A stretch of DNA of 64,000 bases from Candidatus Methylomirabilota bacterium (GTDB taxonomy: Bacteria; Methylomirabilota; Methylomirabilia; Rokubacteriales; CSP1-6): assembly GCA_036506275.1 (NCBI GenBank), contig DASXSB010000013.1, forward strand, positions 65,393-129,392, read 5' to 3'. Below the pieces are notes generated by a model. The model worked only from the letters and a program-made list of their open reading frames with translations, was not told the DNA's origin and searched no databases. Positions 15,740 through 38,290 of this stretch are shown in pieces. The stretch's first letter is position 1, and each line of letters opens with the position of its first letter. Both the position numbers and the translations under genes were made by a program.

Positions 15740-16075
15740 TCAGCGGCGCCAGCCGCCTCCACCGCCGGCGCCACCGGGCCGCGCCCCGCGGTCACCCCGC
15801 GGTCCCGCACCGCCGGTGCCGCGCTGAGGCTGCGGTCGCGCCTCGTCCACCACCAAGTTCCGATCCCGGAAGAGACGGCCGTTCAGCATCTCGACGGCCT
15901 TGGTCGCTTCCTCTTTCGTCGCCATCTCCACGAAGCCGAAGCCCCGTGGCCGACCGGTGAACTGGTCCGTGATGATGCGGACGCTTTCCACCGTTCCCGC
16001 CTGCTGGAACAGCTCGCGCAGATCCTCCTCCGTGGCCTGGAAGGAGAGGTTACCCACGAACAGCTTTGCGGCCAT
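15740..16075 (-). CDS. RRM-type RNA-binding protein with Gly/Arg-rich tail
   Basis: RNP2 KLFVGNL and RNP1 RGFGFVEM motifs; 111 aa. A GGAGG SD precedes the ATG. Confidence 0.9.
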   Translation of the reverse strand: MAAKLFVGNLSFQATEEDLRELFQQAGTVESVRIITDQFTGRPRGFGFVEMATKEEATKAVEMLNGRLFRDRNLVVDEARPQPQRGTGGAGPRGDRGARPGGAGGGGGWRR

Positions 16076-18212: not shown

Positions 18213-19415
18213 ATGATCTCGGTGCAGGACGCTCAGCGCGACATCCTGGAGCGCATCGCGACCCCGACCGCGCCCGAGATGGTCGCCCTTCCCGCCGCCG
18301 CCGGCCGTGTCCTCGCGGAGCCGCTGCGCGCCCCCTTCGACGTTCCCCCCGCCGACAACTCCGCCGTGGACGGCTACGCGGTGGCGAGCAGCGACATCCC
18401 CGCTGCGGGCACACGCGACCTCGACGTCATCGCGGACCTGCCGGCGGGATCGGTGTTCGCCGGCACCGTGCAACGCGGCCAGACGGTGCGGATCATGACG
18501 GGCGCGCCGCTACCGGCGGGCGTGGACACGGTGTTCCCCCAGGAGGTCGTGGAGCGCGCCGGCGAGCGCGTGCGCATCGGCCATCTCCGCCGCGGCATCA
18601 ACGTTCGTCTCCGCGGCGAGGACGTCACGAGCGGCTCCGTGGTGCTGGAGGCGGGCACGGCCCTGCGACCACAAGACATCGGGCTCGCGGCGTCGCTCGG
18701 TCTCTGCGCGGTGCTCGTGCACCGGCGCCCGCGCGTGGCCCTGCTCTCCACCGGCGACGAGGTCGCGGAGCCGGGCACCCCCCGCCGGCCCGGTCAGATC
18801 TATGACGCCAATCGCTTCGCCCTTCGCGCGTCCATCGAGCGGTGCGGCGGCGCCGTCGTCGATCTCGGCATCGCGCCCGACGTCCGCGACGAGCTGCGGG
18901 CGCGCCTGCTCGACGCCAGCCGCATCGCGGACGTGGTGATCACGTCGGGCGGTGTTTCCGTGGGGCTCTACGACCTCGTGAAGAGCGTGCTCGCCGAGAT
19001 CGGCGGCGTCGAATTCTGGCAGGTCGCCATGCAGCCGGGACGCCCGCTCGCGGCCGGCCGCATCGGCGACGCCCACTTCTTCGGACTCCCCGGCAATCCG
19101 GTGGCGTCGATGCTCACGTTCATGCTGTTCGTACGGCCCGCGTTATGGAAGCTCTCCGGTCGCCGCCGACTGTTCCCGGAAACGTTTGCGGCGCGGGCGG
19201 CGGAAGCGATGACCAAGAAGTCGGGACGCCGCGAGTTCAAGCGCGGGATCCTGCGCTATTGCGGCGGCGTGTGGGAAGTCTCGACCACGGGCCCGCAGGG
19301 ATCGGGCATTCTCAGCTCGATGGTGACGGGCAACTGCCTCGTGGTGCTGGAGGAAGACCGCGGCGACGTCGCCCCCGGCGACACCGTGCTCGTGGAGCCG
19401 TTCGAGCCATGCTGA
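18213..19415 (+). CDS. moeA: molybdopterin molybdenumtransferase MoeA
   Basis: Contains NSAVDGYAV, the MoeA N/linker/MPT-binding/C-terminal architecture, and GLPGNPVAS. Preferred start MISVQDAQRDIL. Confidence 0.9.
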   Translation: MISVQDAQRDILERIATPTAPEMVALPAAAGRVLAEPLRAPFDVPPADNSAVDGYAVASSDIPAAGTRDLDVIADLPAGSVFAGTVQRGQTVRIMTGAPLPAGVDTVFPQEVVERAGERVRIGHLRRGINVRLRGEDVTSGSVVLEAGTALRPQDIGLAASLGLCAVLVHRRPRVALLSTGDEVAEPGTPRRPGQIYDANRFALRASIERCGGAVVDLGIAPDVRDELRARLLDASRIADVVITSGGVSVGLYDLVKSVLAEIGGVEFWQVAMQPGRPLAAGRIGDAHFFGLPGNPVASMLTFMLFVRPALWKLSGRRRLFPETFAARAAEAMTKKSGRREFKRGILRYCGGVWEVSTTGPQGSGILSSMVTGNCLVVLEEDRGDVAPGDTVLVEPFEPC

Positions 19416-19870
19416 TGGGCGTGCCCGCAGCAATTCGCGCCATGACCCCGCGCGCCCTCGTGGTGCCGCTTCTGACGAGTGCCATCCTCCTCGTCGGCGC
19501 CGCCCCCGCCGCTCCTCCCGACGCCCCCGTGAGCTTCATCAAGGTCGAGGAGCTCAAGCGTCTCCTCGACGCGCGGACCAAGGCCGACATCATCGACGTC
19601 CGCCACTGGGAGCAGTTCTCGGAGGTTCACATCAAGGGCGCGCGCTCGATGCCGCTGCGCGCGGTGCCGGAGCGCGCGCGCGAGATCAGCAAGAGCGGGC
19701 TCGTCGTCTTCTACTGAACGTGCCCGCATGCCCTGGCCCGGGGGGCCAGCAACATCCTGTACGGGCTCGGGTGGCGCAATCACCGCGTGCTCGAGGAAGG
19801 GTTGCCGGGGTGGATCGACCGCGGCTACCCGGTGGAGGGCACCAACCCCACCGCTCCGCCCGGCCACTGA
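19409..19870 (+). CDS. secreted single-domain rhodanese with in-frame TGA at the catalytic loop (candidate selenoprotein)
   Basis: The ATG overlaps the moeA stop. The N-terminus has a signal-like hydrophobic segment. Rhodanese motifs read IIDVRHWEQFSEVHIKGARSMPL...SGLVVFY-[TGA 19715-19717]-TCPHALARGASNILYGLGWRNHRVLEEGLPGWIDRGYPVEG. The reading frame is continuous and the sequence past the TGA is conserved rhodanese C-terminus. A GC hairpin ctggccc-ggg-gggccag lies 16 nt downstream of the TGA (19733-19749). Confidence 0.6.
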
Positions 19871-19884
19871 GAACGAACGCCCGC

Positions 19885-20859
19885 TCAGGCGACGGACGAC
19901 GACTTCGACACCGGCCGCAGCGTCGCGAACGCGACGAGGCCGGCCGCGATCCACGCCACCTCGCGCACGCGGCGCGCGAGCCCGAAAGCCAGCGCCGTGC
20001 TCGACCCCAGGCCGAGGGCGCCGAACGTGGCCACGAACCCGCCCTCGACCGCGCCCACGCTGGCCGGGATGACGAATGTGGCGAGACGGACGGCGGCGCC
20101 GATGGCCTCGATCACCGTCGCCGTCACCCATGAGACCTCCACCCCGAGAAATCTCAGGATGAGGTAGGTCTCCACCGCCCCCAGGAGCCACGCCACGAAG
20201 TGACAGGCGATGGAGAGCGCGAAGCGGCGCCGCTCTCCGCGATAGAAGTGCGCGAGGGCTGCGTCCACGCGCTCGAGCGAGGCCTCCGCCAGAAGCGCGG
20301 GAGGCACCCCCAGGCGCCCGAGGGCGGCGGCCCCGCGCCCGAAGACCCCGCGCGTCTGCACGAACACGAACGAGGCGAGGGCGACCGCCTCCACCACGAA
20401 GAGCCAGCCCATGGCCTCGAGGAGAGGCGTGGCCGACAGCGCCGTCCACGACGCCAGCGCCACCCCGACGAGGAGAAAGAGCGCCTGCGCGATCGTGATC
20501 GAGGTCTTGGCGACGATCACCGACGCCACCGCCTCGTCGAAGGCGGCGTGACCGCGCAGGAGCCACGCCTTCACCGCCTCCCCCCCGATGGTGGCGGTGG
20601 GCGTGATGGCGTTGAAGGCTTCGCCCGCCAGCCGCGTGACCGTCAGCGTCCGGAACGGGACCACGTCGCGCGCGAACGCGAACCGCCACCCGAGGGTGTC
20701 GAACAGCACCACGAGCGAGTGCGGGAAGCACACCACGATCGCGAGCCGCCACGAGATCCGCCCCATCTCGGCGAGGATGGCTTCGGGATCGTTCTCGACG
20801 ATGAGGAGGGTGAGCAGGCCGAGGCCGAGCGCGAGGAGCGCAGGTCGCCACCACCGCAT
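19885..20859 (-). CDS. membrane protein of the lysylphosphatidylglycerol-synthase TM-region / flippase-like family (UPF0104)
   Basis: 324 aa polytopic protein, MRWWRPALLALGLGLLTLLIV..., with the LPG_synthase_TM-like pattern. It is the last gene of the coupled operon. Confidence 0.65.
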   Translation of the reverse strand: MRWWRPALLALGLGLLTLLIVENDPEAILAEMGRISWRLAIVVCFPHSLVVLFDTLGWRFAFARDVVPFRTLTVTRLAGEAFNAITPTATIGGEAVKAWLLRGHAAFDEAVASVIVAKTSITIAQALFLLVGVALASWTALSATPLLEAMGWLFVVEAVALASFVFVQTRGVFGRGAAALGRLGVPPALLAEASLERVDAALAHFYRGERRRFALSIACHFVAWLLGAVETYLILRFLGVEVSWVTATVIEAIGAAVRLATFVIPASVGAVEGGFVATFGALGLGSSTALAFGLARRVREVAWIAAGLVAFATLRPVSKSSSVA

Positions 20860-20868
20860 CGCGCGACG

Positions 20869-22437
20869 TCAGCTCTCTCGGTAGAAGATCAGGAAGACGC
20901 CGACGAGGCTGAACGCCCACGCCCACAGGCGTCCGGGGACCGCATCGTCCGGCGGCGCCATCCGCAGCTCGAGCCAGCGCGCCCACCCGGCCATCAGGCC
21001 CAGCACACCGAGCGGCGCGTGGGTGATCTCGATGAGGAACTCGGACTTGAGATCGCCCAGCGCGTGCGAGTGCGTGAGCAGGAGGGCGCCGCCCACGGCG
21101 CACAGCAGCGGGAAGACGAGGGCGGCGCGCCGGTGGCCCAGGCGTCCCGCCCGCACCCGCCACTCGAAGAGCCCGAAGCCGACCACGAGCAGCACGAACA
21201 GCCGGTGCTGGAGGACCTCTGCGTAGCCGAAGCTCTCCCAGAATCCGAGCGGTCCCAGCGGCCACGCGCCCGGGTCGTTGCGCACGAGCAGGAACGCCGC
21301 GAGGCCGAGGAACACCAGCGGCCAGTGTCGCGCCCACTTCCCCCACCGCGCGCGATGCACGAGGGCGAGCACGCCCATGGTGAGCACGAAGAACCCCGCC
21401 ATGTGGTGGTTGTACTCGGACCACGCGCGGTCGGCGGCCGTGCGCGGAGCGTCGCGATCCTCCACCGGCAGCTCCGTGATCGGCGGCGACGAGAGCCGCG
21501 GCCACTGCGGCGTGAACCGGCCCGCTACCTCGGCCACGCTCGCGCGGTCGGCCACGTCGATGGCGGGCGGCATCGACGTCAGGGAGGCGGCGGCGAAGAG
21601 CACGGTGAGGCCGAGCCCCAGCTCCACCTCGACGAAGCGCCGCACGCGCGTCACGCCGACGTCGGCGCCGTCCCGGAGGCGCCGGACGGCGAGGAAATTG
21701 GCGGCGCCGAGCACGAGGAGCAAGGCGAGCAGCACGACCTTGGTGATCACCATCACTCCGTACGAGGTGCCGAGCAGCGCGGATGTCCCGTCGATGTACT
21801 GCGCGGAGAGCGCGACGCCCGCCACCACCAGCGCCGCCACCGCCGCCAGCGCCATCGCCGAGAATCGGCGGAGCATCGACATCGGCCACGGCGCGCCGGG
21901 ACCGCCGAGAACGGCGGCGGTGAGGTGCACGAGGCCACCCACCCACACCGCCGCCGCCAGCTGGTGGGTGGCGTCGAGCGCGGTCGGCAGGAGGCGGTGA
22001 TCGAGGCGCGCCATGGCATGGCTGAGCGACGCCGCGCTCGCGGCGAGCAAGATGGCAAGAGCGCCGAGCGTCCACGACGCCGCCGTCCCCTGCCCGCGGC
22101 GCCGCACCGTCAGCGCCGTCACCGCCAGCGCCGCGCAGATGGCCATCCGCATCACGGTCGCGCGGAAGTACGTGGTGCCGGAGAGCTCCGCCAGCGGCCA
22201 TCCGCTGCCGTCATCGAGCGCCGCCAGGTGCACGCCGAGGGCGAGGCATTGCGCGACGGCGACGCCGACGGCGCCCGCCGTCACGAGCACGAGCGAGCGC
22301 CGGACGAGCGCGGTCAGCGTGGGCGGAGGAAGCCCGGCCGGCCGAAGGACGAGCAGGATGAAGAAGACGCCGCCGACGGCGATCGCCTGGCTCGCGAGCG
22401 CGATACCGCGCAGGAGGACATCGAGAAAGCCCGCCAC
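20869..22437 (-). CDS. CopD-family membrane protein fused to a CtaG/caa3-assembly-like C-terminal domain
   Basis: 522 aa. The N-terminal half is a CopD-like helix bundle. The C-terminal half (SEYNHHMAGFFVLTMG...THSH) resembles CtaG. Confidence 0.6.
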   Translation of the reverse strand: MAGFLDVLLRGIALASQAIAVGGVFFILLVLRPAGLPPPTLTALVRRSLVLVTAGAVGVAVAQCLALGVHLAALDDGSGWPLAELSGTTYFRATVMRMAICAALAVTALTVRRRGQGTAASWTLGALAILLAASAASLSHAMARLDHRLLPTALDATHQLAAAVWVGGLVHLTAAVLGGPGAPWPMSMLRRFSAMALAAVAALVVAGVALSAQYIDGTSALLGTSYGVMVITKVVLLALLLVLGAANFLAVRRLRDGADVGVTRVRRFVEVELGLGLTVLFAAASLTSMPPAIDVADRASVAEVAGRFTPQWPRLSSPPITELPVEDRDAPRTAADRAWSEYNHHMAGFFVLTMGVLALVHRARWGKWARHWPLVFLGLAAFLLVRNDPGAWPLGPLGFWESFGYAEVLQHRLFVLLVVGFGLFEWRVRAGRLGHRRAALVFPLLCAVGGALLLTHSHALGDLKSEFLIEITHAPLGVLGLMAGWARWLELRMAPPDDAVPGRLWAWAFSLVGVFLIFYRES

Positions 22438-22444
22438 CGGCCGG

Positions 22445-23620
22445 TCAGCGCGCGCGGCGCCCGAGCCACGCCAGCAAGACCAGAAACGCAGGCGCGCCCG
22501 CCGCGGTGATGGCGACGAACCAGTGTGCCCGGCCGAAGGCGGCGAGGAGAACGATCACGTAGATGAAGTCGCGATAGGTCATGGTGTCGGCCACGCGGCC
22601 GAGCAACGAGCCGCGGTCGGCATCGGTGGAGGCACGCATCCCGCGGCTGTACACGACCACCGCCGACCACGCCGTCCCCGCCACCGCGAGAGCGCCGAGC
22701 AGCAGCGGCCACGGCGCGCGCGCCTCCAGGCTCCAGCCCATCGCCATGCACGCGAAGACGGCGGCGTGGACGGCGTTGTCGCCGACGACGTCGAGGAGGG
22801 CACCGAGGCGCGATTCCTGAAACTTCAGCCGCGCCAGCTCGCCGTCGCAGCCGTCGAGGATGGAGTGGGTCAGGAACAGCAGTGCTCCCGGGAGCTGCCA
22901 GGCGGGGGACGTGGACAGAAAGAACGGCGCGCTCAGGAAGCCGATCCCGAGGCTCACGAGGGTCATGGTGTTCGGCGTGACCCGGGTTCCGCACAACCGG
23001 CGCGTGATGGCGAGGGAGATGCGGCGCTCGAGGAGCCGCGACATCACGCCCTCGTTCGGCTTCACGAGGCGCCGCAGGAGCCACGTTTCCGCTCCGCGCA
23101 GATCGTGTCGGTCGGCGAGGATCAGACGCGCGTCGCCGAGGCCGCCGTCGATGGTCTTCGCCGTCGTGCGCAACGCGTCCACGAGCTGCGCCATCCCGCC
23201 ACCGGTGGCCGCCAGCGCCAGCACGCTCCCGCATTGCGACGCCTCCACCACCGCCACCGACGCTCCATCGACGTAGGCGTGGTCGGGCTCGATCGCCATC
23301 GTCCGCAGCCGTCGCAGCCACTCGACGGCGGGCACGACGTTGCCGGCCACGAACACGATTCGCCGCGCGCCCACGGCCGGAAACGGAACACCGGGCGCGA
23401 GCACGTGGGCGGGCGCGTCGACGACGTCACGCGGCCCGTCGAGGTCCGGATGCCGCACGACGATGCGACCGAAGCCGGCGCGGTCGGCGGCGAGCACGAT
23501 ACGTCGCCACACAGGAACGCCCGCGAGCACGGTGCGCGGCGACACCGCCTCCGTGCCATCACGCGTGGAGGGCAAGACCACGAGCATGGCGTCGTCCGCC
23601 ACCGCCGTCGCTCCCGTCAT
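22445..23620 (-). CDS. bifunctional-looking protein: N-terminal nucleotidyltransferase-like domain + C-terminal CDP-alcohol phosphatidyltransferase
   Basis: 391 aa. The C-terminal part reads DGCDGELARL...LGALLDVVGDNAVHAAV, the CDP-OH phosphotransferase signature D-G-x2-A-R-x8-G-x3-D-x3-D. The N-terminal ~180 aa has a cytidylyltransferase-like fold without a canonical G-rich loop. The architecture resembles IPCT/DIPPS. Confidence 0.7.
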   Translation of the reverse strand: MTGATAVADDAMLVVLPSTRDGTEAVSPRTVLAGVPVWRRIVLAADRAGFGRIVVRHPDLDGPRDVVDAPAHVLAPGVPFPAVGARRIVFVAGNVVPAVEWLRRLRTMAIEPDHAYVDGASVAVVEASQCGSVLALAATGGGMAQLVDALRTTAKTIDGGLGDARLILADRHDLRGAETWLLRRLVKPNEGVMSRLLERRISLAITRRLCGTRVTPNTMTLVSLGIGFLSAPFFLSTSPAWQLPGALLFLTHSILDGCDGELARLKFQESRLGALLDVVGDNAVHAAVFACMAMGWSLEARAPWPLLLGALAVAGTAWSAVVVYSRGMRASTDADRGSLLGRVADTMTYRDFIYVIVLLAAFGRAHWFVAITAAGAPAFLVLLAWLGRRAR

Positions 23621-24681
23621 GCGAGAAGTCCCGCCACCGCGGCGGGAAGCGGCGCGGGCGGCATCTCGACGGAGAGCGCGGCCCCGTGGCGACGGCTGGA
23701 CTCACGGGCGAGCGCTTCCAGCACCACGCACAGCGAGGCCTCCACGAGGTTGCCGCTCCCCGGCGCGGGGGCGTCGAGCGCGCGCATGAACTGCTCCGCG
23801 ACCTCGTGGAACCAGTCGGGGTGATGGGAGCCGTCGGAGAGCGCGGGCGGGCACGACCAGCGCTCCTCCGTCGTGGCGTGGCCGGGTCGCGTGAGGATCA
23901 CGGTGTCGTCCTCGAGCCGGATGCTGCCCGCCGTCCCCGTCAGCTCCGCGTGATTCCGCCGCTCGTCGGACGCCCACGTCAACAACACTTCCGCGGTGGC
24001 CTCCGGATACGTCAACCGAACGGTGGCGGTGTCCTCGACGGCGAACTGCGTGTGTCGGCGCGTCTCGAGGGTGGCGCTGACGGCGGTCGGCCGCTCGCCG
24101 ATCCAGCGTCCGAGGACATAGAACACGTGCCAGCCGTGATCGGTGAGCACGCCGCCTCCCGCCACCCCGGGATCGACACGCCAGTTGTCGGCGGGATCGC
24201 GTCCGGCCGCGGGTTTCCTGCGCAGCGTGTGCCAGGTGACGTGACGAAGGCCGCCGATGGCGCCGTCGCACACCAGCTCGCGCACACGCTGCACGATGGG
24301 CGCATGATGCCAGTTGTGAACGGTGTGGAGGACGCGACCGGTCGCGGACGCGCGTCCCACCACCAGCGCCAGCTCGTCGAGGGAGCGAACGAGCGGCTTC
24401 TCGCAGAGGACGTGCAGGTTGCGGTCGAGCGCGCTCGCGATGATCCCGGCGTGGCTCGAGGGCGGCGTGCAGACGTCGACGAAGTCGAACGCCTCGCGGG
24501 CGAGGAGCGCGGCCGTGGAGTCGTACCACCGCACGTCGGGGAGGCGGGCCTCGACCTCCGGGCGGCGCGCGCCGTCGGTGTCGGTGGCCGCCACGATCGT
24601 GACGTCGTCGCGCTTCAGCCAGCCCGGCACGTGGGCGTTCAGGGAAACGCCGCCCACGCCCACGATCGCGCCTCGCCGCAC
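23617..24681 (-). CDS. Gfo/Idh/MocA-family NAD(P)-dependent oxidoreductase (inositol/sugar dehydrogenase-like)
   Basis: The GTG start (VRRGAIVGVGGVSLNAHVPGWL) overlaps the upstream stop. The EKPL motif is present. Confidence 0.8.
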   Translation of the reverse strand: MRRGAIVGVGGVSLNAHVPGWLKRDDVTIVAATDTDGARRPEVEARLPDVRWYDSTAALLAREAFDFVDVCTPPSSHAGIIASALDRNLHVLCEKPLVRSLDELALVVGRASATGRVLHTVHNWHHAPIVQRVRELVCDGAIGGLRHVTWHTLRRKPAAGRDPADNWRVDPGVAGGGVLTDHGWHVFYVLGRWIGERPTAVSATLETRRHTQFAVEDTATVRLTYPEATAEVLLTWASDERRNHAELTGTAGSIRLEDDTVILTRPGHATTEERWSCPPALSDGSHHPDWFHEVAEQFMRALDAPAPGSGNLVEASLCVVLEALARESSRRHGAALSVEMPPAPLPAAVAGLLA

Positions 24682-26010
24682 TACTCGAGCCCGTGTCGGC
24701 TCGCGACCACCGTCAGCGCCTGATCGAGGATCTCGAGACCCTCGAGGGCGGCGTCTTCCTGGATCACGAGAGGCGGATTGATCCGGATGCGGGGCGCGTA
24801 CGCCATGGTGACGAGACCACGACGCAGACATTCCTGGTATAGCTCGCGCGTGATGTCCGAGGGCAGCAGCTCCTTGGTGGTGCGATCGCGGACGAGGTCG
24901 ATCCCCAGCATGAGCCCGACCCCGCGCACGTCGCCGATCACGCGATGCTTCTCCTTCATCTGCTCGAGGCGCGTCAGCATGGCGCGTCCCACGCGCTGGG
25001 CATTTTTCACGAGATCCTCCTGGAGGATGATCTCGACGGCGGCGAGCCCGGCGGCGGCGGCGAGCGGATTGCCGCCGTAGCTGGACGAGCTGGCGCTCGG
25101 ATTCGACCACGGCTTCTTGCTGGTGAGCGCCTCCGTGGAGATGACGCCGCTCAACGGGAAGCCGCCGCCCATGCCCTTCCCCACCGTCATGATGTCGGGC
25201 ACCACCCCGCTGTGCTCGGCGCCCCACATCAGGCCCGTGCGTCCGAAGCCGGTCAGCATCTCGTCGGCGATGAAGAGCGCGCCGTGATCGCGCGCGACGG
25301 ACTGGACGGCACGCAGGAAACCTTCCGGCGGCACCACGTTGCCGGCGGTCCCCTGGATCGGCTCCACGATGATGGCGGAAATCTCGCCCGCCGTCTGGTA
25401 ACGGATGACGTCGCGGAGGTACTCGGCGCACGCGATGCCGCAGTCCGGATAGCGGAGCTTCAGCGGGCACCGATAGCAGTCCGCGTACGGCGCCAGGTAC
25501 TGTCCGGGCAGGAACGGCCCCAGGTGGTGCTTGAACTCGCTGCCGAGGAGCCCGAGGACCCCCCCGGTCTTGCCGTGGAAGCCGCCCCAGAACCCGAGCA
25601 CCTCGTGCTTGCCGGTGGCCGCCTTCGCGAGCCGCAGCGCCGCCTCCACCGCCTCCGCCCCGCCGGAGAAGAGCTGTATGCGCGTGAGGCCGCTCGGCGT
25701 CACGGTGGCGAGGAGCTCGAGAAACCGCGCGCGCGTTTCGGTGGTGAAGCTCCCGAAGGTCAGCCGCTCCACCTGCCGTTTGAGCGCCTCCACGTAGTGG
25801 GGGTGGCAGTGACCGATGCTGCCGACACCGATCCCGGCCACGAAGTCGAGGTATTCGTTGCCGTCCTCGTCGATGAGCGTGCATCCCGTGCCCCGCTGCA
25901 TGGCCAGTCCCGCGTAGAGCGCAAACGACTGCAGGCCGGGCGCCACGTGCCGATGCTCGCGCGCGAAGATCTCGCGCGAGCGCGGCCCCACCTCGCGCCG
26001 CGGCCTCACC
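24681..26010 (-). CDS. class III (omega) aminotransferase, PLP-dependent
   Basis: The GTG start at 26010 overlaps the upstream stop as GTGA. Motifs IADEMLTGFGRTG and MTVGKGMGGGFP carry the Lys. The N-terminal Arg-rich part of the track ORF is spurious. Confidence 0.85.
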
Positions 26011-26842
26011 GGCGCGCTCCCGCGAACCGCAGCGCGAGGTAGGCGGCGATGGCGGCGGCCGCCTCGTCGCGGTAGAGCGCGAAGCTCGGCCATGCGTTCA
26101 GATCGAGGAGCACGAGGTCGCCGCCGGGCGTGGCGATGGCGTCGCCGCCGTAGACCTCGAGCCCGAGGGCGGCCGCGGCCTGCCGGACCAGTCGTCCCAG
26201 GCGTCGCGGATCGAACGGACATCCCGCCAGCGTCTGATCCCGGTGATAGAACCACCGGAACCACGGCGGCGCGCCGTCACGGCCGGCGCCGGTGCCGACG
26301 CCGTAGAACTTGATGGCGTCGCCCTCGACGTGGGGCTGGAAGACGGCGCGCGGAATCGCGCGGGCGGCGAGACCGGCCACGGCCTCCCGCACGGCGTCGG
26401 GAGTGGCGGCGAAGACCACGTCCCCCTCCTGCGTGTTGTGCACGTCACCGCGCTTCACCCACACGGGCTCCGTCACGTCGGGCAGGGGCTCCGTCGTCGC
26501 CACCAGCCGGCTCGGGACGAAGGGGACCCCGGCCTCCGCGAAGCCGGCGATCATCCGGTCACGATAGGTGTTGAGAACGGCGAGCGGGCGGTTGACCTCG
26601 GTGACGCCCGCCGTCTCCCACGCCTGCAGGCGCCGGAGGGCGGGAAGCTGCTCGCACATCAGGAAGATGGCGGCGGGCGCTTCCGCCCGCTCGTCCAGCT
26701 CGTGCGATTCCTTCAGCGTGACTTCGAATCCCTTGGTCTCCAGATTCTTTCCGGTGAGACGCAGGATCTGGGCGTCGTCGGTCTCGCGCCCCGGTGAGTG
26801 TTCGCGCTCGCGGAAAATTCCCCAGCACCGCACAGGTGTCAT
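26006..26842 (-). CDS. ATP-grasp family ligase (RimK/GshB-like)
   Basis: The true start is the internal ATG (MTPVRCWGIFRE...). Motifs include VWVKRGDVHNTQ, AIKFYGV and LEVYGGDAIATPGGDLVLLDLNAWPSF. The Arg-rich N-terminus of the track ORF is spurious. Confidence 0.7.
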   Translation of the reverse strand: MTPVRCWGIFREREHSPGRETDDAQILRLTGKNLETKGFEVTLKESHELDERAEAPAAIFLMCEQLPALRRLQAWETAGVTEVNRPLAVLNTYRDRMIAGFAEAGVPFVPSRLVATTEPLPDVTEPVWVKRGDVHNTQEGDVVFAATPDAVREAVAGLAARAIPRAVFQPHVEGDAIKFYGVGTGAGRDGAPPWFRWFYHRDQTLAGCPFDPRRLGRLVRQAAAALGLEVYGGDAIATPGGDLVLLDLNAWPSFALYRDEAAAAIAAYLALRFAGARR

Positions 26843-27564
26843 AGCCCTTTCTTCGCGACCGACGGCTCGCGGGTAATGGTGAGCGACAACGCTTCGGCGA
26901 GGGCCACGTCCTCGGCCCGATCGACGTCGATGACGCGCGGGATGACTTCGCCATAGAGCGGCTCGCCCTCCGCGACGAGCCAGGCGAGGAAGTCCCGCAG
27001 CCGGTCGTGGCGAGCATCCGGCGCGAGCGCGCGCACGCGCTCGGATACGAGGTACAGGCCCGCGGTGACGAGGGCGCCCGCGCCGAGGGCGGTGATCCGA
27101 CCGCCGGCATCGAGGGTCGCCCGCAGCGGCTTCTCGTCCGCCACGAACGGCGTGAGCCCGAGCACGCTCCGCGATGCCGGGTGGCGCCGGGCGGCGTCCA
27201 CGAAGCGGACGAAGTCGGCGGGTGGACACCAGGCGTCGACGGTCGAGACGAGCATGGGCCCCGCGCCCGGCGCCGACACCACCTCCGCGAAGCTCCGCAG
27301 CGACGACGGCGTCGTCTTCACGATGCACGTCAGGTCGAGGGACGGAAAGCGCGCGGGCAGCCACTCCGCGCACGCGCGCTCGTCCTCGTTGACGATCACG
27401 ACGAGCGACGTGATGCCGGCCGCCCGGAAGTTCCCGATGACCGCTTCGATGAGCGGAACGCCGGCCACCGGCACCATCGGCTTCGGCACCGTGAACCCAT
27501 CCGCGCGGAGGCGGCTCCCTTCCCCGGCCGCGATGATGCCGCCGCGGAGCGCGGACGCCGTCAC
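26839..27564 (-). CDS. sugar/alcohol-phosphate nucleotidyltransferase (NTP_transferase family)
   Basis: The GTG start at 27564 overlaps the HAD gene stop as GTGA. GGIIAAGEGSRL is the G-rich NTP-transferase loop. Confidence 0.75.
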   Translation of the reverse strand: MTASALRGGIIAAGEGSRLRADGFTVPKPMVPVAGVPLIEAVIGNFRAAGITSLVVIVNEDERACAEWLPARFPSLDLTCIVKTTPSSLRSFAEVVSAPGAGPMLVSTVDAWCPPADFVRFVDAARRHPASRSVLGLTPFVADEKPLRATLDAGGRITALGAGALVTAGLYLVSERVRALAPDARHDRLRDFLAWLVAEGEPLYGEVIPRVIDVDRAEDVALAEALSLTITREPSVAKKGL

Positions 27565-28249
27565 GCGAGCACCCCCGGCAGGTCTTTGAGCGACCCGATC
27601 ACGCGATCGCCGGGGCAGCACGGCACCGCTCTGTCGGCGCCGTCGGCCACCAGCCAGACGTGGGCGAGACCGGCCGCGCGCGCGCCCGCCATGTCCCGCG
27701 GCGCCGAGTCACCGACGAACACGGCGTCCGCGGGCGAGACCCCGAGACGCTCGAGCGCGACTCGAAAGATGGCGGGGTCGGGCTTGCAGACACCGACGTC
27801 GGTGGAGTCGACGATCACGTCGAAGAGCCCGCCGAGGCCGCCGTCGCCGCAGACGCGCGCGAGGTTGCCGTAGAAGTTGGACACGATCGCGAATCGGTAG
27901 CGGGCCGACAGCGTGGCGAGAACACCGGCGTTGCGCCGGAGCGTCGCCCGCGCGTCGTCGACGAATCGCGCCGCCACCCGCTCCGCGAGCGCGTCGTCGA
28001 GGAGACCGAGCCCGCGGGCGACCCCCGCCGTGAGGCGAGAGACCGTCTCCTGAAAGGAAAGCGTACGCTCGATCTTCCCCACCAGCGCATCGTCGGCGGC
28101 GTAGAACAGCCGATCGAACGACGCCCCGCCGACGTCGACGCCTTCATCGCGATAGAGCCTGCCCACGCGCTCCTTCCACGTCACGCCGTCGGCGTCGAGG
28201 GTGCCCCCGAAATCGAACAAGACCGCCGCCCGCCCGCTGGACGCTGCCA
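27561..28249 (-). CDS. HAD-superfamily hydrolase/phosphatase
   Basis: The internal ATG (MAASSGRAAVLFDFGGTLDADG) provides motif I DxDGT. The C-terminal region has VGDSAPRD, matching motif IV. The upstream part of the track ORF is spurious. Confidence 0.75.
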
Positions 28250-28426
28250 TCCGCTTGATGAAACCCCACCCTGCGCTGAAACACAAGAATAAGACGTCGG
28301 TTACGGGACCCCGGTGCAACGCCGGGCCCGCGTTCCCCACCGGCAAGTGACTTGCAACGTACATCCCGTTCTGAGATGTGTCCAAGAACCCCGTCGCCGG
28401 ATATCGGACCGCGAGCACGTGCGCGC

Positions 28427-30100
28427 ATGCTGGGTGCCGCCCTCCTGGCAACCATGCTCGTTCTCGGTGCAGCGCCCGTTCTCGGTGCCGCGCCCGCGAG
28501 CACACCCGCGCCGGCGGCCGACCGCACCGCCACGCCCGAGGACGTTCTCACGAGCTTGAACCAGGCGCTCGCCTGGTACCGCCAGGCCCGGATCGTGATG
28601 CGGTCCGTGAGCAGCGCCGGCGGCGGCCTCATCTTCTCGCGCGACGACGAGCAGATCGCGCTACGGCTTCTCGCACGCGCGTTCGAGACCGCGCGCGGGC
28701 AGGCAGCCCTCATCGCCGCCGAGGCAAGCCGCGCTCCCGGTCCCGCCGGCACGCGTCCGGCGAACACGCGCGCACGCATCGAAGCCGAGATGCGCCGCCA
28801 CCAGGCGGAGGTGGCGCGGCTCGAGCAAGACGTTCGCCGCGCGCCCGCCCGCGCGCGACCACCGATCGAGGCCAAGCTCACCGCCGCCCAGCGTCGCGTC
28901 GAGCTCGACCGCGCCCGCCTCGACGTCATGGCCAAGCTCCAGGCGGGCGGTGCCGCGCTCGCGGCCGACGACCCCGAGGACAATCTCGTCCGGCAGATCG
29001 AGACCCTGCATGATGCCGTCCCCGAGCTGAGCACAGCGGCCGGCCGCGCGGCCGACCCGGCGACGACGACCGTGGACGCGTCGTCGGGAACGTGGAGCGC
29101 CGTGCGGCGACTGCTCGCGTTGCAACGCAATCGCCAGTCGCTCGATGATCTCGAGAGCGCCACCACCGCGCTCATGCGGAACGTCGACGACACGCTCAAG
29201 ACCGCGCGCGCGGCCCTTCCCTCCACGGTGACCAGGCTTCGCGAGCTCACGCGCGATCCTGACGACGCCGCTCCTGCTGCCAATTCTAGTGTCGCGCCCA
29301 CGGGCTCGCCGGGCGCGGCGTCCACGGCTCCTCCGAAGGGCGCGCCCGACGGCGCCGCCTCCCGCACCACCGCCTCGGCCGCGCCCGCCGCCGCCGGTGC
29401 CTCGGCCGCCGGTGCCTCCGCCGCCGACATCGAGCGCGAGTTCCAGGCGTTGCTCCAGCGCGGGAAGCTCCTGGCCGGGATCGTGATCCCGCTCCACGAC
29501 GAATCGGCGCTGGTCCATCGCTTCGCCGACGATCTCCGTGGCTGGCGGCGGGCGCTCGATCGCCAGTCGCTCCAGCTCATGCAGGAGGTCGGCGTCGACC
29601 TCCTCGGCGTGCTGGCCGCCATCGCCGTGATCCTGATCGCGGCCCTGCTGTGGCGGATCGCGGTCAACCGCTACGTGGGCGACGGCTATCGCCGCCGCTT
29701 GCTGATGACGGTCCGCAACGCGATCGTCATGATCGCGATCCTCCTCGTCGTGATCTTTCACTTCACGACCGAGCTGACCGCGCTCGTGACCGCGCTCGGC
29801 TTCGCGGCGGCGGGCATCGCGTTCGCGCTCCAGAACGTCATCCTGGCCCTCGCCGGCTACTTCTCGATGGTGGCGCCCAACGGCATCCGCGTGGGCGACC
29901 GCGTGAGCCTCCAGGGTCCGTTCGGCTACGTCCACGGCGAGGTGATGGACATCGGCTTCGTGCGCATCCGACTGCGCGAGCTTGCCGGCGATCCGCCGCA
30001 GCCCACGGGCCGCGTGGTGGTCTTCTCGAACGCCGTCGTGTTCACGGGGACCTTCTTCAAGGAGCCGCCGGCGTCTCAGCCGGCGAGCCGCGCCGCGTAG
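28427..30100 (+). CDS. mechanosensitive channel MscS family with long N-terminal periplasmic coiled-coil domain
   Basis: A signal-like MLGAALLATMLVLGAAP starts the protein. A long Ala/Arg/Gln-rich coiled coil follows. The C-terminal part carries the MscS TM3/beta motif (VGDRVSLQGPFGYVHGEVMDIGFVRIRLRE). Confidence 0.75.
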   Translation: MLGAALLATMLVLGAAPVLGAAPASTPAPAADRTATPEDVLTSLNQALAWYRQARIVMRSVSSAGGGLIFSRDDEQIALRLLARAFETARGQAALIAAEASRAPGPAGTRPANTRARIEAEMRRHQAEVARLEQDVRRAPARARPPIEAKLTAAQRRVELDRARLDVMAKLQAGGAALAADDPEDNLVRQIETLHDAVPELSTAAGRAADPATTTVDASSGTWSAVRRLLALQRNRQSLDDLESATTALMRNVDDTLKTARAALPSTVTRLRELTRDPDDAAPAANSSVAPTGSPGAASTAPPKGAPDGAASRTTASAAPAAAGASAAGASAADIEREFQALLQRGKLLAGIVIPLHDESALVHRFADDLRGWRRALDRQSLQLMQEVGVDLLGVLAAIAVILIAALLWRIAVNRYVGDGYRRRLLMTVRNAIVMIAILLVVIFHFTTELTALVTALGFAAAGIAFALQNVILALAGYFSMVAPNGIRVGDRVSLQGPFGYVHGEVMDIGFVRIRLRELAGDPPQPTGRVVVFSNAVVFTGTFFKEPPASQPASRAA

Positions 30101-33373: not shown

Positions 33374-34105
33374 TCAGGCTTCGGATCCGGCGGGAGCGGC
33401 GAGCACCACGAACTGATAGCCGAGGAGCCGCGGCAGCGCCCGCGCCGCGAGCGCGCTCGCCCCGTGCACGCGGTCGAGCCAGGCGCCGTGCCAGCGGGCG
33501 GGGATCACCTGCGGCAGCGGCACCGGCGTCACCGTGCGCCGGACGACGGACAGCTCGGCCGTCGCCAGCAGCTCGCCCACGGTGCGCGCGGTGAAGAAGC
33601 GGAGATGGGTGCGATCGAGGATGCCCCGCTCCGTGTATTCGAACTTCCCGCACAGGAGCGAGAGCCGGATCCAGAGATGGGCGACGTTCGGGATCGACAG
33701 CACGAGCCGCCCCCGCGGCGCCAGTAGGCGCGCGAGCTGACCGAGCACGCGCCGCGGCTCCACGAGGTGCTCGAGGACGTCGCCGCACACGATCGCGTCG
33801 AAGGGACCGTCGAGGGGCGGCAACGCGCGGTCGAGATCGGCGACGACCATGCGCTCGCAGTGAGCGGCGCCGCGGGCGGCGGCGCCGGCGTCGGCCTCGA
33901 GCGCGGTCACGCGCCAGCCGCGGGTGGTGAGGTGGCGGCTCAGGAGACCGTCGGCGGCGCCCACGTCGAGCGCGCGGCGGCCGTTCCCTTCCCCGAGCCA
34001 GCGCAGGATGATCGAGTGACTGCTGTGAGGATCGGCCTTCAGCGTGTAGCGGGTCGCCTCGCTCACCGTTCCATGATCGGACGCGGGGGCGTCACGGAGC
34101 AACAT
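33374..34105 (-). CDS. class I SAM-dependent methyltransferase
   Basis: Motif I ALDVGAADGLLS and motif post-I DAIVCGDVLEHL. Confidence 0.85.
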   Translation of the reverse strand: MLLRDAPASDHGTVSEATRYTLKADPHSSHSIILRWLGEGNGRRALDVGAADGLLSRHLTTRGWRVTALEADAGAAARGAAHCERMVVADLDRALPPLDGPFDAIVCGDVLEHLVEPRRVLGQLARLLAPRGRLVLSIPNVAHLWIRLSLLCGKFEYTERGILDRTHLRFFTARTVGELLATAELSVVRRTVTPVPLPQVIPARWHGAWLDRVHGASALAARALPRLLGYQFVVLAAPAGSEA

Positions 34106-37502: not shown

Positions 37503-38290
37503 CGTACACCCAGGGCATCGTTCTCGGGATCGTCCAGGGCCTGACGGAGTTCCTGCCCGTCTCGTCGTCGGGCCATTTGATCCTCGTCCCCCACGTCTTC
37601 GGCTGGCCCGATCAGGGCCTCGCCTTCGACGCCGTGATGCACCTCGGCACCCTCGCCGCCCTCGTCGCCTATTTCCGCTTCGAGCTCATCGCCATGCTCA
37701 CGGGCGCGATGTCGCGGCGCCTCGCCGTCCTGCTCGTCGTCGCGACCATCCCCGGCGTGATGGCCGGCTTGCTCTTCGAGAAGATCGTGGAAGCGCGCCT
37801 GCGCTCTCCGCTCGTGATCGCGGTGTCGACGGCGCTGTGGGCGATCGTGATGTGGATCGCCGATCGGCGGGCGCGGCCGCCGGCGCCGCTGCCCGGCGAT
37901 CCCGTGGAGCGCGTGAGCTGGGGCCAGGGCATCGCGGTCGGGATCGCGCAGGCGCTCGCGCTCATCCCGGGCACGTCGCGCTCCGGCATCACCATCACCA
38001 CGGGCTTGTTCGCCGGCCTCGACCGCGCCACCGCCGCCCGCTACGCGTTCCTGCTCGGCATCCCGATCACCGCCGGCGCCGGCGCCTGGAAGGGGCTCAA
38101 GCTCCTGCGCGACGGCATCCCGGCCGGGGAAGCGGGCGCGCTGCTGGTCGCGCTGATCGCGGCGTTCCTGAGCGGGTGGTTCGCGGTGTGGTTCCTGGTG
38201 AGCTATCTCAAGCGCCACTCGCTGGCGCCGTTCGTGATCTACCGCCTGGTGCTCGCCGCCGTCATCGCCGCCGTCGTCCTGCATCGCTGA
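37498..38290 (+). CDS. uppP: undecaprenyl-diphosphate phosphatase UppP/BacA
   Basis: The GTG start overlaps the upstream stop (GTGA). GIVQGLTEFLPVSSSGHL and PGTSRSGITI are present. Confidence 0.9.

What the first reader, a model, noticed from the sequence alone, without database searches (positions are those of the whole stretch)
19885..28249. Eight-gene translationally coupled operon predicting an undescribed aminated CDP-alcohol/polar-lipid headgroup pathway
The minus strand carries, in order: HAD phosphatase, NTP-transferase, ATP-grasp ligase, class III aminotransferase, Gfo/Idh/MocA dehydrogenase, a nucleotidyltransferase-like domain fused to a CDP-alcohol phosphatidyltransferase, a CopD/CtaG-like membrane protein, and an LPG-synthase-TM/flippase-like membrane protein. 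Seven consecutive junctions are start/stop overlaps (GTGA, ATGA or TAGTG) or gaps of at most 8 nt, so they are almost certainly co-translated. The logic (dehydrogenase plus transaminase makes an amino-polyol or amino-sugar; ATP-grasp adds an amide-linked acid; cytidylyltransferase plus CDP-alcohol transferase and HAD phosphatase mirror IPCT/DIPPS/IMPase of di-myo-inositol-phosphate synthesis; a flippase-type membrane protein ends the operon) points to a phosphodiester-linked, aminated and possibly amino-acylated headgroup or solute. No characterised pathway has this composition as far as I can tell from the sequence.
Basis: inference. Interest (0 to 1): 0.8.

Follow-up and report, generated by a model that had tools for sequence, protein, structure and literature searches.

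The report
Conserved operon for modified inositol-phosphate headgroup
This is a real eight-gene operon, conserved in hundreds of uncultivated soil bacteria (Rokubacteria/Methylomirabilota and a few others). It most likely builds an amino-modified inositol-phosphate group for a membrane lipid, and in relatives it sits next to inositol-synthesis and hopanoid genes, but its product is unknown.

Summary
Eight minus-strand genes (19885-28250) are joined by five start/stop overlaps and two gaps of 7 and 9 nt.

Most domain calls are confirmed:
- The CDP-alcohol transferase has the full IPCT/DIPPS architecture, but its cytidylyltransferase domain has lost the catalytic motifs.
- The HAD protein lacks the acid/base Asp of phosphatases in all 75 homologues.
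- Nothing supports "CtaG-like".

Relatives of the ATP-grasp gene occur in 365 species-level genomes. In the best 80 loci the first six genes are almost always colinear, while the CopD-like and HpnL-like genes are frequent extras.

The main new finding is context. In relatives the core sits beside myo-inositol-phosphate synthase (12 of 33 fully sampled loci), HpnN/HpnM-like lipid transporters (11 each), squalene-hopene cyclase (5), or Dxs/IspH. The window itself has none of these.

Best reading: an inositol-derived, aminated and probably amidated phosphodiester headgroup made by a DIP-like CDP-alcohol route and exported as an envelope lipid, possibly hopanoid-linked. A soluble solute is not excluded. 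I found no paper describing the cluster. The closest described analogue is the unconfirmed Bacteroides "alternative inositol lipid" cluster. Novelty: a new variant of a known kind.

The parts
27561..28250 (-). G1: HAD-IA family hydrolase (229 aa), first gene of the operon. Motif I reads DFGGTL, so it lacks the acid/base Asp.
   Evidence: Pfam Hydrolase E 1.8e-20. Best NCBIfam hit is REG-2-like HAD, below its cutoff. Motif I is DxGGTL in all 75 homologues. Colinear in 71 of 72 loci.
26839..27564 (-). G2: small MobA/IspD-type NTP transferase (241 aa), the presumed cytidylyltransferase. The AAGEGSRL and PKP motifs are intact.
   Evidence: Pfam NTP_transf_3 E 3.7e-12. Motifs seen in the alignment. 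Colinear in 77 of 77 loci. GTGA overlap with G1.
26006..26842 (-). G3: divergent ATP-grasp enzyme (278 aa). It has no sequence-family model and is the signature gene of the cluster.
24681..26009 (-). G4: class-III (omega) aminotransferase (442 aa). The PLP lysine is present in the TVGKGMGGG motif.
   Evidence: Pfam Aminotran_3 E 2.7e-104. Best PDB hit is an archaeal GABA/ornithine-type aminotransferase, 7vno, E 5e-86. 70-82% identity across loci and colinear in 72 of 73.
23617..24681 (-). G5: Gfo/Idh/MocA NAD(P) oxidoreductase (354 aa). The EKP and DxxxH catalytic motifs are present.
   Evidence: Pfam GFO_IDH_MocA N and C domains. Best PDB sequence hits 4h3v, 3dty, 4fb5 and 3v5n belong to the scyllo-inositol dehydrogenase clade according to PMC5969746. 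Colinear in 65 of 67 loci.
22445..23620 (-). G6: IPCT/DIPPS-type CDP-alcohol phosphotransferase (391 aa). It has a degenerate cytidylyltransferase-like N-domain, about six TM helices and an intact DGxxDGxxAR...G...D...D motif.
20869..22437 (-). G7: polytopic membrane protein (522 aa). It has an N-terminal CopD domain and an unassigned His-rich C-terminal domain of 4-5 TM helices. It is an accessory gene, mainly in Rokubacteria.
   Evidence: Pfam CopD E 2.7e-20 and NCBIfam CopD over residues 7-291. The C-terminal part has no family hit. Present in 42 of 57 loci at the colinear position.
19885..20859 (-). G8: LPG_synthase_TM / flippase-like membrane protein (324 aa), HpnL-like. It is the last gene of the operon.
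   Evidence: Pfam LPG_synthase_TM E 3.6e-26. NCBIfam HpnL TIGR03476 180.5 bits against a cutoff of 195.65. An HpnL-like gene lies within 10 kb in 23 of 33 fully sampled loci.
19878..19898 (-). Terminator-like hairpin overlapping the G8 stop codon. This is a weak consensus match only.
   Evidence: The next gene downstream is convergent (rhodanese-like, 19409-19717 +).

Best explanation
This is a genuine, vertically conserved biosynthetic operon of a Methylomirabilota/Rokubacteria genome. Six genes form an invariant core: a HAD-like hydrolase, a cytidylyltransferase-type NTP transferase, a divergent ATP-grasp enzyme, a class-III aminotransferase, a scyllo-inositol-dehydrogenase-clade oxidoreductase, and an IPCT/DIPPS-type CDP-alcohol phosphotransferase whose own cytidylyltransferase domain is dead. 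A CopD-like and an HpnL-like (flippase-type) membrane protein are frequent add-ons. Proposed mechanism, all steps inferred: (1) myo-inositol or its phosphate, supplied by MIPS, is oxidised to an inosose by G5. (2) G4 transaminates the inosose to an aminocyclitol. (3) The ATP-grasp enzyme G3 modifies the aminocyclitol, most likely by amide ligation of a carboxylate, alternatively by phosphorylation. (4) G2 activates an alcohol-phosphate with CTP. (5) G6 forms the phosphodiester. (6) G1 removes or transfers a phosphate. (7) G8 moves the lipid-bound headgroup to the outer leaflet. (8) HpnN/HpnM/Mla-like transporters, encoded beside the operon in relatives, then carry it to the outer membrane. What is shown directly: the gene models, the coupling, the domain and fold identities, the intact or lost motifs, the synteny, and the neighbouring genes in relatives.
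For: Operon reality: five overlaps and two short gaps; uniform GC3; G1-G6 complete in 31 of 33 fully sampled loci; per-gene colinearity 71/72, 77/77, 72/73, 65/67 and 57/61. CDP-alcohol chemistry: G6 has the intact signature motif and its nearest structures are AF2299 and IPCT/DIPPS; G2 keeps the nucleotidyltransferase motifs while the G6 N-domain has lost them, which explains why a separate NTP transferase is always present. Inositol link: MIPS lies within 10 kb in 12 of 33 fully sampled loci and in four differently labelled phyla, as two non-orthologous MIPS types; IPCT-like NTP1 and a fused IPCT/DIPPS-like gene lie alongside; G5's PDB relatives are in the scyllo-inositol dehydrogenase clade. 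Amination and amidation: G4 is a complete class-III aminotransferase and G3 has an ATP-grasp fold nearest RimK/LysX ligases. Lipid destination: G8 is flippase-like and HpnL-like; HpnN-like RND, HpnM/MlaC-like and MlaD genes are adjacent in about a third of loci; squalene-hopene cyclase sits immediately upstream in the Methylomirabilales and in two Rokubacteria arrangements; Dxs and IspH are adjacent in Acidobacteriota. A similar gene set (MIPS, NTP transferase, CDP-alcohol transferase, HAD, with a nearby LPG-synthase-like gene) has been proposed for inositol lipids in Bacteroides/Prevotella (PMC9246714).
Against: No substrate is established. The window itself contains no MIPS, SHC, HpnN-like or Dxs gene. 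G6's closest structural relatives do not process lipids, and six-TM CDP-alcohol phosphotransferases are reported to take soluble acceptors (PMC4634129), so a lipid acceptor is not the default expectation. G1 lacks the acid/base Asp of HAD phosphatases. G4's nearest relatives are omega-amine/aldehyde transaminases rather than known inosose aminotransferases. G3 could be a kinase. One variant, L027, keeps G1-G2-G3 and a CDP-alcohol transferase but replaces G4/G5 with a PfkB kinase and an MFS transporter, so G3 does not strictly require the G4/G5 products made in cis. All HpnL, HpnM and HpnN matches are below the NCBIfam cutoffs.
Confidence: 0.5

Rival explanations
1. Soluble-solute reading. The operon makes a cytoplasmic DIP-like phosphodiester, for example an aminated or amidated di-inositol or glycero-inositol phosphate. 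G2 acts as IPCT, G6 as DIPPS and G1 as the terminal phosphatase. The membrane proteins G7 and G8 are unrelated or act as exporters.
For: G6 is closest in sequence and fold to DIPPS and AF2299, and both are stated not to process lipids. Six-TM members of the family use soluble acceptors (PMC4634129). The set of NTP transferase, CDP-alcohol transferase, phosphatase-like protein and MIPS is exactly the DIP gene set.
Against: A flippase-type LPG_synthase_TM gene is inside the operon or adjacent in 23 of 33 loci. The neighbours in relatives are lipid transporters, SHC and PagL-like genes. The hosts are mesophilic soil and groundwater bacteria, whereas DIP is, to my knowledge, a solute of (hyper)thermophiles. 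G1 is not an IMPase-family phosphatase and lacks the catalytic Asp+2.
Confidence: 0.2
2. Hopanoid-anchored reading. The headgroup is attached to a bacteriohopanepolyol, or to a CDP-activated phosphoribosyl-hopane donor, giving a phospho-(amino)cyclitol hopanoid. HpnL-like proteins flip it, and HpnN/HpnM-like proteins export it.
For: In Methylomirabilales the order is HpnM-like, HpnN (596 bits), HpnM-like, PagL-like, SHC, HpnL-like, G1-G6, MIPS, IPCT/DIPPS-like, HpnL-like. SHC also heads the supercluster in Rokubacteria loci L043 and L047. Dxs and IspH precede the cluster in Acidobacteriota. G8's best family is HpnL. The function of HpnL is unknown although it is tied to bacteriohopanepolyol (BHP) gene clusters.
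Against: SHC lies within 10 kb in only 5 of 33 fully sampled loci and is absent from this window. I know of no phosphorylated or inositol-linked hopanoid, and none appeared in my searches. The six-TM rule argues against a bulky lipid acceptor. The family matches are below their cutoffs.
Confidence: 0.15
3. Envelope-decoration reading (Arn/EptA-like). The operon builds an activated amino-polyol phosphate that is flipped and transferred in the periplasm onto lipid A, LPS or a glycan, to change surface charge.
For: The logic of dehydrogenase, aminotransferase, nucleotide activation and flippase parallels the Ara4N pathway (established knowledge, from memory). A PMT_2/ArnT-like GT-C gene sits inside the supercluster in L054, and a 50%-identical copy lies 6 kb away in the window at 34092-35801. 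PagL-like and Mla genes are neighbours.
Against: The GT-C gene is adjacent in only 1 of 80 loci. No polyprenyl-phosphate transferase is present. CDP-alcohol phosphotransferases are not known to act in such pathways.
Confidence: 0.1
4. The eight genes are a chance juxtaposition of unrelated housekeeping genes and are not a functional unit.
For: Every family involved is common and promiscuous. No promoter-like site was found.
Against: There are five consecutive start/stop overlaps. Gene order is near-invariant across 80 loci at 45-80% protein identity and across differently labelled phyla.
Confidence: 0.01

Closest known systems
Di-myo-inositol-phosphate pathway (MIPS, IPCT, DIPPS, phosphatase) of hyperthermophiles; structures 4mnd (IPCT/DIPPS) and 4o6m (AF2299)
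   Different: G6 scores 85.6 bits against a family cutoff of 580. Its N-domain has lost the catalytic motifs, and a separate G2 supplies the activity. The hydrolase is a HAD without Asp+2, not an IMPase. An aminotransferase, an oxidoreductase, an ATP-grasp enzyme and two membrane proteins are added. The hosts are mesophilic soil bacteria, and the neighbours are lipid-transport and hopanoid genes.
Putative 'alternative inositol lipid cluster' of Bacteroides vulgatus/Prevotella (Heaver et al. 2022, PMC9246714)
   Same: [quoted passage not shown] The proposed route is Kennedy-like, through CDP-inositol.
   Different: That cluster is itself not functionally confirmed and has no aminotransferase, dehydrogenase, ATP-grasp or CopD-like gene. 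Here MIPS is absent from the window.
Hopanoid-associated genes hpnL, hpnM, hpnN with shc
   Same: G8's best family is HpnL (180.5 bits). In relatives the operon is flanked by HpnN-like, HpnM-like, HpnL-like and SHC genes.
   Different: All matches are below the curated cutoffs except the SHC Pfam domains. Classical hpn clusters contain no CDP-alcohol transferase, MIPS or ATP-grasp gene (none is mentioned in the text searched). The window has no shc.
Aminocyclitol formation by an inositol dehydrogenase plus an aminotransferase (scyllo-inosamine in streptomycin, hygromycin A and rhizopine pathways)
   Same: A Gfo/Idh/MocA dehydrogenase is paired with a PLP aminotransferase. G5's PDB relatives are in the scyllo-inositol dehydrogenase clade.
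   Different: The comparison rests on my own knowledge of those pathways. As far as I recall their aminotransferases are DegT/StsC-type, not class III. Those pathways lack a CDP-alcohol step, and no secondary-metabolite context is present here.
RimK/LysX-type ATP-grasp amide ligases and ITPK1/PPIP5K ATP-grasp inositol-phosphate kinases
   Different: No sequence-family model detects G3. The best profile E-value against PDB is only 0.006. The RimK 'FRSNxHRGG' substrate loop is only partly kept, as FRWFYH(K/R)DQ. The choice between ligase and kinase is unresolved.

Membership tests
CDP-alcohol phosphotransferase, IPCT/DIPPS-AF2299 branch | Signature D-x2-D-G-x2-A-R-x8-G-x3-D-x3-D on TM2-TM3 | tested here: met
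   G6 residues 256-281 read DGCDGELARLKFQESRLGALLDVVGD. They align with AF2299 and DIPPS, and D256, G257, D259, G260, A263, R264, G273, D277 and D281 are invariant in 42 homologues.
CDP-alcohol phosphotransferase, IPCT/DIPPS-AF2299 branch | [quoted passage not shown] | tested here: met
Bifunctional IPCT/DIPPS (NF041135) | Catalytically competent IPCT domain (G-x-G-x-R loop and Lys) and a score above the family cutoff | tested here: not met
   The score is 85.6 bits against a cutoff of 580, and only the DIPPS half aligns. The N-domain reads LPSTRDG...SPRT where G2 and NTP1 have AAGxGxRL...PKP.
Bifunctional IPCT/DIPPS (NF041135) | Uses CDP-L-myo-inositol with L-myo-inositol-1-phosphate | not testable with these tools
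   This needs an enzyme assay.
ATP-grasp superfamily | Three-domain ATP-grasp fold with Mg/ATP-binding acidic-x-Asn motif | tested here: met
ATP-grasp superfamily | Detection by a curated sequence model (Pfam or NCBIfam) | tested here: not met
   No hit at E<=10. Phmmer and profile searches against PDB give only E 0.057 and 0.006.
HAD phosphatase | Motif I D-x-D, with the nucleophile Asp and the acid/base Asp at +2 | tested here: not met
   G1 reads D13-F-G15, and the motif is DxGGTL in 75 of 75 homologues. Motifs II-IV are present.
HpnL (TIGR03476) | Score at or above the curated cutoff of 195.65 bits | tested here: not met
   180.5 bits. HpnL is the best-scoring family, and the alignment is full length (2-311 of the protein against 2-314 of 318 in the profile).
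HpnL (TIGR03476) | Genomic association with hopanoid biosynthesis genes | tested here: inconclusive
   This window has no shc or hpnN. In relatives, HpnL-like paralogues flank the core next to SHC and HpnN, but in only 5 of 33 fully sampled loci for SHC.
Bacteroides alternative inositol-lipid cluster (PMC9246714) | MIPS clustered with an NTP transferase, a CDP-alcohol phosphatidyltransferase and a HAD hydrolase | tested here: inconclusive
   The NTP transferase, CDP-alcohol transferase, HAD and an LPG-synthase-like gene are present. MIPS is absent from the window but adjacent in 12 of 33 relatives. Orthology to the BVU proteins was not tested.
CopD copper-resistance protein | Full-length match above the family cutoff | tested here: inconclusive
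   The Pfam CopD domain scores 73 bits against a cutoff of 32 (met). The NCBIfam CopD equivalog scores 67 bits against a cutoff of 195 (not met). An extra 230-aa C-terminal domain is unassigned. No copper genes are nearby.

The most novel reading that the evidence does not exclude
The operon, together with the MIPS, IPCT/DIPPS-like, HpnL-like, HpnN-like and SHC genes that flank it in Methylomirabilales, some Rokubacteria and Acidobacteriota, makes a phosphodiester-linked, aminated cyclitol headgroup on a bacteriohopanepolyol. That would be the first phosphorylated, inositol-derived hopanoid. It would also assign HpnL-type proteins, whose function is unknown, as the flippases of headgroup-modified hopanoids.
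Probability: 0.15. Interest if true: 0.85.

Novelty: new variant of a known kind. Interest (0 to 1): 0.66.

Why it matters
Rokubacteria and Methylomirabilota are abundant, almost entirely uncultivated soil and groundwater bacteria, and their envelope chemistry is essentially unknown.

- **Scale.** This operon is one of their most conserved accessory gene sets: G3 has relatives in 365 species-level genomes and more than 2300 protein clusters. It points to a membrane component or solute that has never been described.
- **Reach of known chemistry.** If the inositol reading is right, CDP-inositol/DIP-type chemistry extends from hyperthermophile solutes and gut Bacteroidetes lipids into mesophilic soil phyla, with an amination/amidation module added.
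- **HpnL.** The repeated adjacency to shc and to hpnN-, hpnM- and hpnL-like genes gives a concrete, testable hypothesis for HpnL-type proteins, whose role has remained open since the hpn clusters were defined.
- **Biomarkers.** A nitrogen- and phosphorus-bearing lipid of this kind could serve as a biomarker in environmental lipidomics.
- **Direct test available.** 'Candidatus Methylomirabilis' carries the cluster (locus L056), and to my knowledge enrichment cultures of that genus exist (not checked here), so the prediction could be tested directly.

Tried and rejected
**Look-ups that returned nothing**
- Exact-sequence look-ups of G6 and its 100%-identical database twin P0001 found no record, so I could not retrieve the window's own contig beyond 64 kb.
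- Pfam at E<=10 on G3, the G6 N-domain and the G7 C-domain gave nothing usable.
- tblastn of MIPS, SHC, HpnN-like, Dxs, IspH, MlaC/D, NTP1 and CDPOH1 against the window gave no hits other than the paralogous matches to G6, G8 and G1.
- The promoter scan found no sigma-70-like site in the region 19300-28700 scanned, which includes the stretch upstream of G1. That is uninformative for this phylum.

**Literature**
- Searches combining CDP-alcohol, aminotransferase, ATP-grasp, Rokubacteria, inositol, hopanoid and inosamine found no description of this cluster.
- The library excludes most subscription journals, so 'not described' is provisional.

**Ideas considered and rejected**
- A 59%-identical G6 homologue (L001) lies outside any such cluster. 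G6-like genes alone are therefore not a marker, and I used G3 as the anchor instead.
- Mycothiol-type chemistry: there is no glycosyltransferase, deacetylase or MshC-type ligase.
- Aminoglycoside-type secondary metabolism: there is no sugar-modifying, resistance or regulatory context, and the cluster is conserved vertically across a phylum.
- A copper-homeostasis role for G7: no Cu genes are adjacent and its position inside the operon is conserved. I could not disprove it.
- Resolving ligase versus kinase for G3 by fold and profile comparison: the margin is too small.

Full report

The window is about 71% G+C, so raw ORF lists are crowded with spurious frames. A positional GC plot and a listing of start codons resolve one unbroken run of eight minus-strand genes:

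| Gene | Coordinates | Length |
|---|---|---|
| G1 | 27561-28250 | 229 aa |
| G2 | 26839-27564 | 241 aa |
| G3 | 26006-26842 | 278 aa |
| G4 | 24681-26009 | 442 aa |
| G5 | 23617-24681 | 354 aa |
| G6 | 22445-23620 | 391 aa |
| G7 | 20869-22437 | 522 aa |
| G8 | 19885-20859 | 324 aa |

Each gene has GC3 of 0.90-0.94. The junctions, read directly from the sequence, are GTGA, ATGA, GTGA, TAGTG and ATGA, followed by gaps of 7 and 9 nt.

The unit is bounded on both sides. Downstream lies a convergent rhodanese-like gene (19409-19717). Upstream lies a divergent gene (28352/28556-30100) that has no family match above threshold. The wider neighbours (MoeA, RDD, DUF309, SDR, an ABC-2 transporter and others) are unrelated.

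**2. Domain calls**

Pfam and NCBIfam confirm HAD (G1), MobA-like NTP transferase (G2), class-III aminotransferase (G4), Gfo/Idh/MocA (G5), CDP-alcohol phosphatidyltransferase (G6), CopD (N-terminal half of G7) and LPG_synthase_TM (G8). Four refinements matter.

- **G3 is an ATP-grasp enzyme by fold only.**
  - No curated model matches it, even at E<=10.
  - An AlphaFold2 model built on 38 homologues (pLDDT 81) hits only ATP-grasp enzymes at the top of both searches: Foldseek PsnB, Ddl, LysX and RimK at E about 1e-12.
  - A profile search of PDB slightly favours RimK-type ligases (E 0.006) over ITPKs (E 0.6-1.9).
  - The fold call is confirmed. Amide ligase is favoured but a kinase is not excluded.
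- **G6 has the whole architecture of bifunctional IPCT/DIPPS, but its N-domain is degenerate.**
  - The transferase signature DGxxDGxxAR...G...D...D is intact and invariant in 42 homologues.
  - The N-terminal cytidylyltransferase-like domain has lost the AAGxGxR loop and the PKP lysine that G2 and the IPCT-like paralogue NTP1 retain. This explains why a separate small NTP transferase always accompanies G6.
- **G1 keeps the HAD nucleophile and motifs II-IV but has Gly at nucleophile+2.** This holds in all 75 homologues recovered. 'Phosphatase' is therefore not secure.
- **'CtaG-like' has no support for G7.** Its C-terminal, His-rich domain of 4-5 TM helices matches nothing.

**3. Source organism and conservation**

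A protein 100% identical to G6 is annotated as coming from a Methylomirabilota MAG. G6 and G3 each have more than 2000 homologous protein clusters in the large database. G3 homologues are uniformly about 278 aa and about 68% identical.

A scan of one genome per species found G3 relatives in 365 genomes. The 80 best loci are mostly Rokuibacteriota/Methylomirabilota, with a few labelled Nitrospiraceae or Acidobacteriota. Several odd labels, such as Nitrosotalea and Verrucomicrobiia, carry typical Rokubacteria-type clusters and probably reflect mis-binned contigs.

tblastn of all eight proteins against these loci gives the following colinear, same-strand occupancy wherever the contig reaches the expected position:

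| Gene | Loci with the gene |
|---|---|
| G1 | 71/72 |
| G2 | 77/77 |
| G4 | 72/73 |
| G5 | 65/67 |
| G6 | 57/61 (relocated just upstream in most of the rest) |
| G7 | 42/57 |
| G8 | 25/55 |

Among the 33 loci with at least 9 kb on both sides, 31 have the full G1-G6 core, 23 have an HpnL-like gene and 21 have the CopD-like gene. The operon is thus a six-gene invariant core with two frequent membrane-protein additions.

**4. What the neighbours in relatives say**

This is the main new information.

- **Rokubacteria.** Around the core, on the same strand in most of these loci (inverted in L010), lie MlaD, an MlaC/HpnM-like gene, an IPCT-like NTP transferase, a second DIPPS-like transferase, an HpnL-like gene, a myo-inositol-phosphate synthase (524 bits to the INO1 model) and an HpnN-like RND transporter (loci L002, L024, L043, L047, L052, L054, L070 and others).
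- **Methylomirabilales** (L038, L056, L067, L069). The order is HpnM-like, HpnN (596 bits, cutoff 752), HpnM-like, PagL-like, squalene-hopene cyclase (Pfam E 1e-149), HpnL-like, G1-G6, a second non-orthologous type of MIPS, a fused IPCT/DIPPS-like gene (228 bits), and another HpnL-like gene.
- **Acidobacteriota** (L081, L082). The cluster is preceded by Dxs and IspH. In L081 it is followed by MIPS and a MacAB-TolC-type exporter.
- **Nitrospiraceae** (L079). The locus has HpnL-like, G1-G6 and MIPS.
- **Counts** among the 33 fully sampled loci: MIPS 12, HpnN-like 11, HpnM/MlaC-like 11, SHC 5.

Two different MIPS types and at least three different arrangements are recruited next to the same core, which makes a functional link to inositol phosphate much more likely than coincidence. 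The SHC, Dxs/IspH and HpnN/M/L-like neighbours tie the system to envelope lipids, and specifically to hopanoid biology. The window itself carries none of these genes within its 64 kb, so for this genome the link is by homology only.

**5. Mechanism**

Shown directly: an active-looking NTP transferase (G2), an active-looking DIPPS-type phosphotransferase (G6), a complete PLP aminotransferase (G4), a Gfo/Idh/MocA oxidoreductase with EKP and DxxxH motifs (G5), an ATP-grasp enzyme (G3), a HAD-fold hydrolase (G1) and a flippase-type membrane protein (G8). G5's best PDB relatives (4h3v, 3dty, 4fb5, 3v5n) fall in the scyllo-inositol dehydrogenase clade (PMC5969746).

Inferred sequence of steps:
1. 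Inositol or its phosphate is oxidised by G5.
2. G4 transaminates the product to an aminocyclitol.
3. G3 amidates it, or less likely phosphorylates it.
4. G2 makes a CDP-alcohol.
5. G6 forms the phosphodiester.
6. G1 processes a phosphate.
7. G8 translocates the lipid-linked product.
8. HpnN/HpnM/Mla-like systems export it.

A natural variant, L027, keeps G1-G2-G3 and a CDP-alcohol transferase but replaces G4/G5 with a PfkB-type kinase and an MFS transporter. This fits a model in which the modified polyol can be imported and phosphorylated instead of being made in situ. It also argues mildly that G3 is not simply the kinase.

**6. Tension in the model**

The literature on this enzyme family states that AF2299 and DIPPS do not process lipids. 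It also states that six-TM members take soluble acceptors, whereas enzymes with lipid acceptors carry three or four extra helices (PMC4634129). G6 has the six-TM form. Three possibilities follow:
- The product is a soluble DIP-like solute (rival 1, 0.2).
- The lipid is the CDP-activated donor rather than the acceptor.
- This branch breaks the rule, as the unconfirmed Bacteroides model also requires.

I keep the lipid reading as best (0.5) for two reasons. A flippase-type gene sits inside the operon, and lipid-transport and hopanoid genes are the recurrent neighbours. The lipid anchor itself (glycerolipid or hopanoid) is open. The hopanoid-anchored version is the most novel reading (0.15).

**7. 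Comparison with known systems**

- The chemistry is that of the DIP pathway and of the putative Bacteroides/Prevotella alternative inositol-lipid cluster: MIPS, NTP transferase, CDP-alcohol transferase and HAD, with an LPG-synthase-like neighbour (PMC9246714).
- G6 is not a member of the bifunctional IPCT/DIPPS equivalog: it scores 85.6 against a cutoff of 580 and has a dead IPCT domain.
- G8 falls just short of the HpnL cutoff (180.5 against 195.65).
- G1 fails the DxD test for HAD phosphatases.
- The triad of aminotransferase, oxidoreductase and ATP-grasp enzyme, and the CopD-like protein, have no counterpart in either known cluster.
- Recent hopanoid surveys list HpnL as of unknown function, and in the text I searched they make no mention of inositol or CDP-alcohol genes.
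- I found no paper describing this cluster, within the limits of an open-access library.

**8. Verdict**

The finding is a widely conserved, uncharacterised pathway built from known enzyme kinds in a new combination, so I rate it a new variant of a known kind. Interest is 0.66. The product is unknown and the mechanism is inferential. Against that, the cluster is abundant in major uncultivated soil phyla, it offers a testable function for HpnL-type proteins, and it can be tested directly by heterologous expression or by lipidomics of Methylomirabilis enrichments.

Noticed in passing
window 34092-35801 (-), with 33374-34066 (-) and 37499-38290 (+): A PMT_2/ArnT-like GT-C glycosyltransferase lies about 6 kb upstream of the operon, next to a SAM methyltransferase and near a BacA undecaprenyl-diphosphatase. 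A 50%-identical GT-C gene sits inside the supercluster of locus L054, between G5 and the HpnN-like transporter. This may hint at a periplasmic transfer step.
   Followed up: partly
window 27561-28250 (G1) and 75 homologues in loci L002-L084: The HAD protein has Gly instead of the acid/base Asp at nucleophile+2 (motif DxGGTL) in every homologue. This pattern is seen in REG-2-like proteins and haloacid dehalogenases rather than in phosphatases.
   Followed up: yes
L027:7690-13516: This is a variant cluster without the aminotransferase and oxidoreductase. A PfkB-family kinase is fused or adjacent to the HAD gene, followed by the NTP transferase, the ATP-grasp gene, a CDP-alcohol transferase and an MFS transporter.
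   Followed up: partly
L054:1255-2442 and 5457-6233; L002:17989-18903: The Rokubacteria superclusters also carry a TPP-dependent enzyme (395 aa) and a HalD-like 2OG-Fe(II) oxygenase. Their role relative to the core is unknown.
   Followed up: no
window 13421-15682 (+) and 15740-16075 (-): A family-B DNA polymerase gene (exonuclease and polymerase domains) follows a DsbA-like gene, and a small RRM_1-domain RNA-binding protein lies nearby. Both are unrelated to the operon.
   Followed up: no
window 28352-30100 (+): The divergent neighbour of the operon has no family match above threshold, only weak MscS-like hits (E 0.003-0.07). It has no counterpart in any related locus.
   Followed up: partly
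loci L028, L041, L045, L046, L066, L077: Contigs from MAGs labelled Nitrosotalea (an archaeon), Dormiibacterota, Acidoferrum, Verrucomicrobiia, Limnocylindria and Deferrimicrobiaceae carry clusters 66-68% identical to the Rokubacteria type. This suggests mis-binned contigs rather than true taxonomic spread.
   Followed up: no
L001:10001-11158: A 59%-identical homologue of G6 stands alone after an FAD oxidoreductase gene, with none of the other operon genes nearby. The G6 family therefore also works outside this cluster.
   Followed up: no
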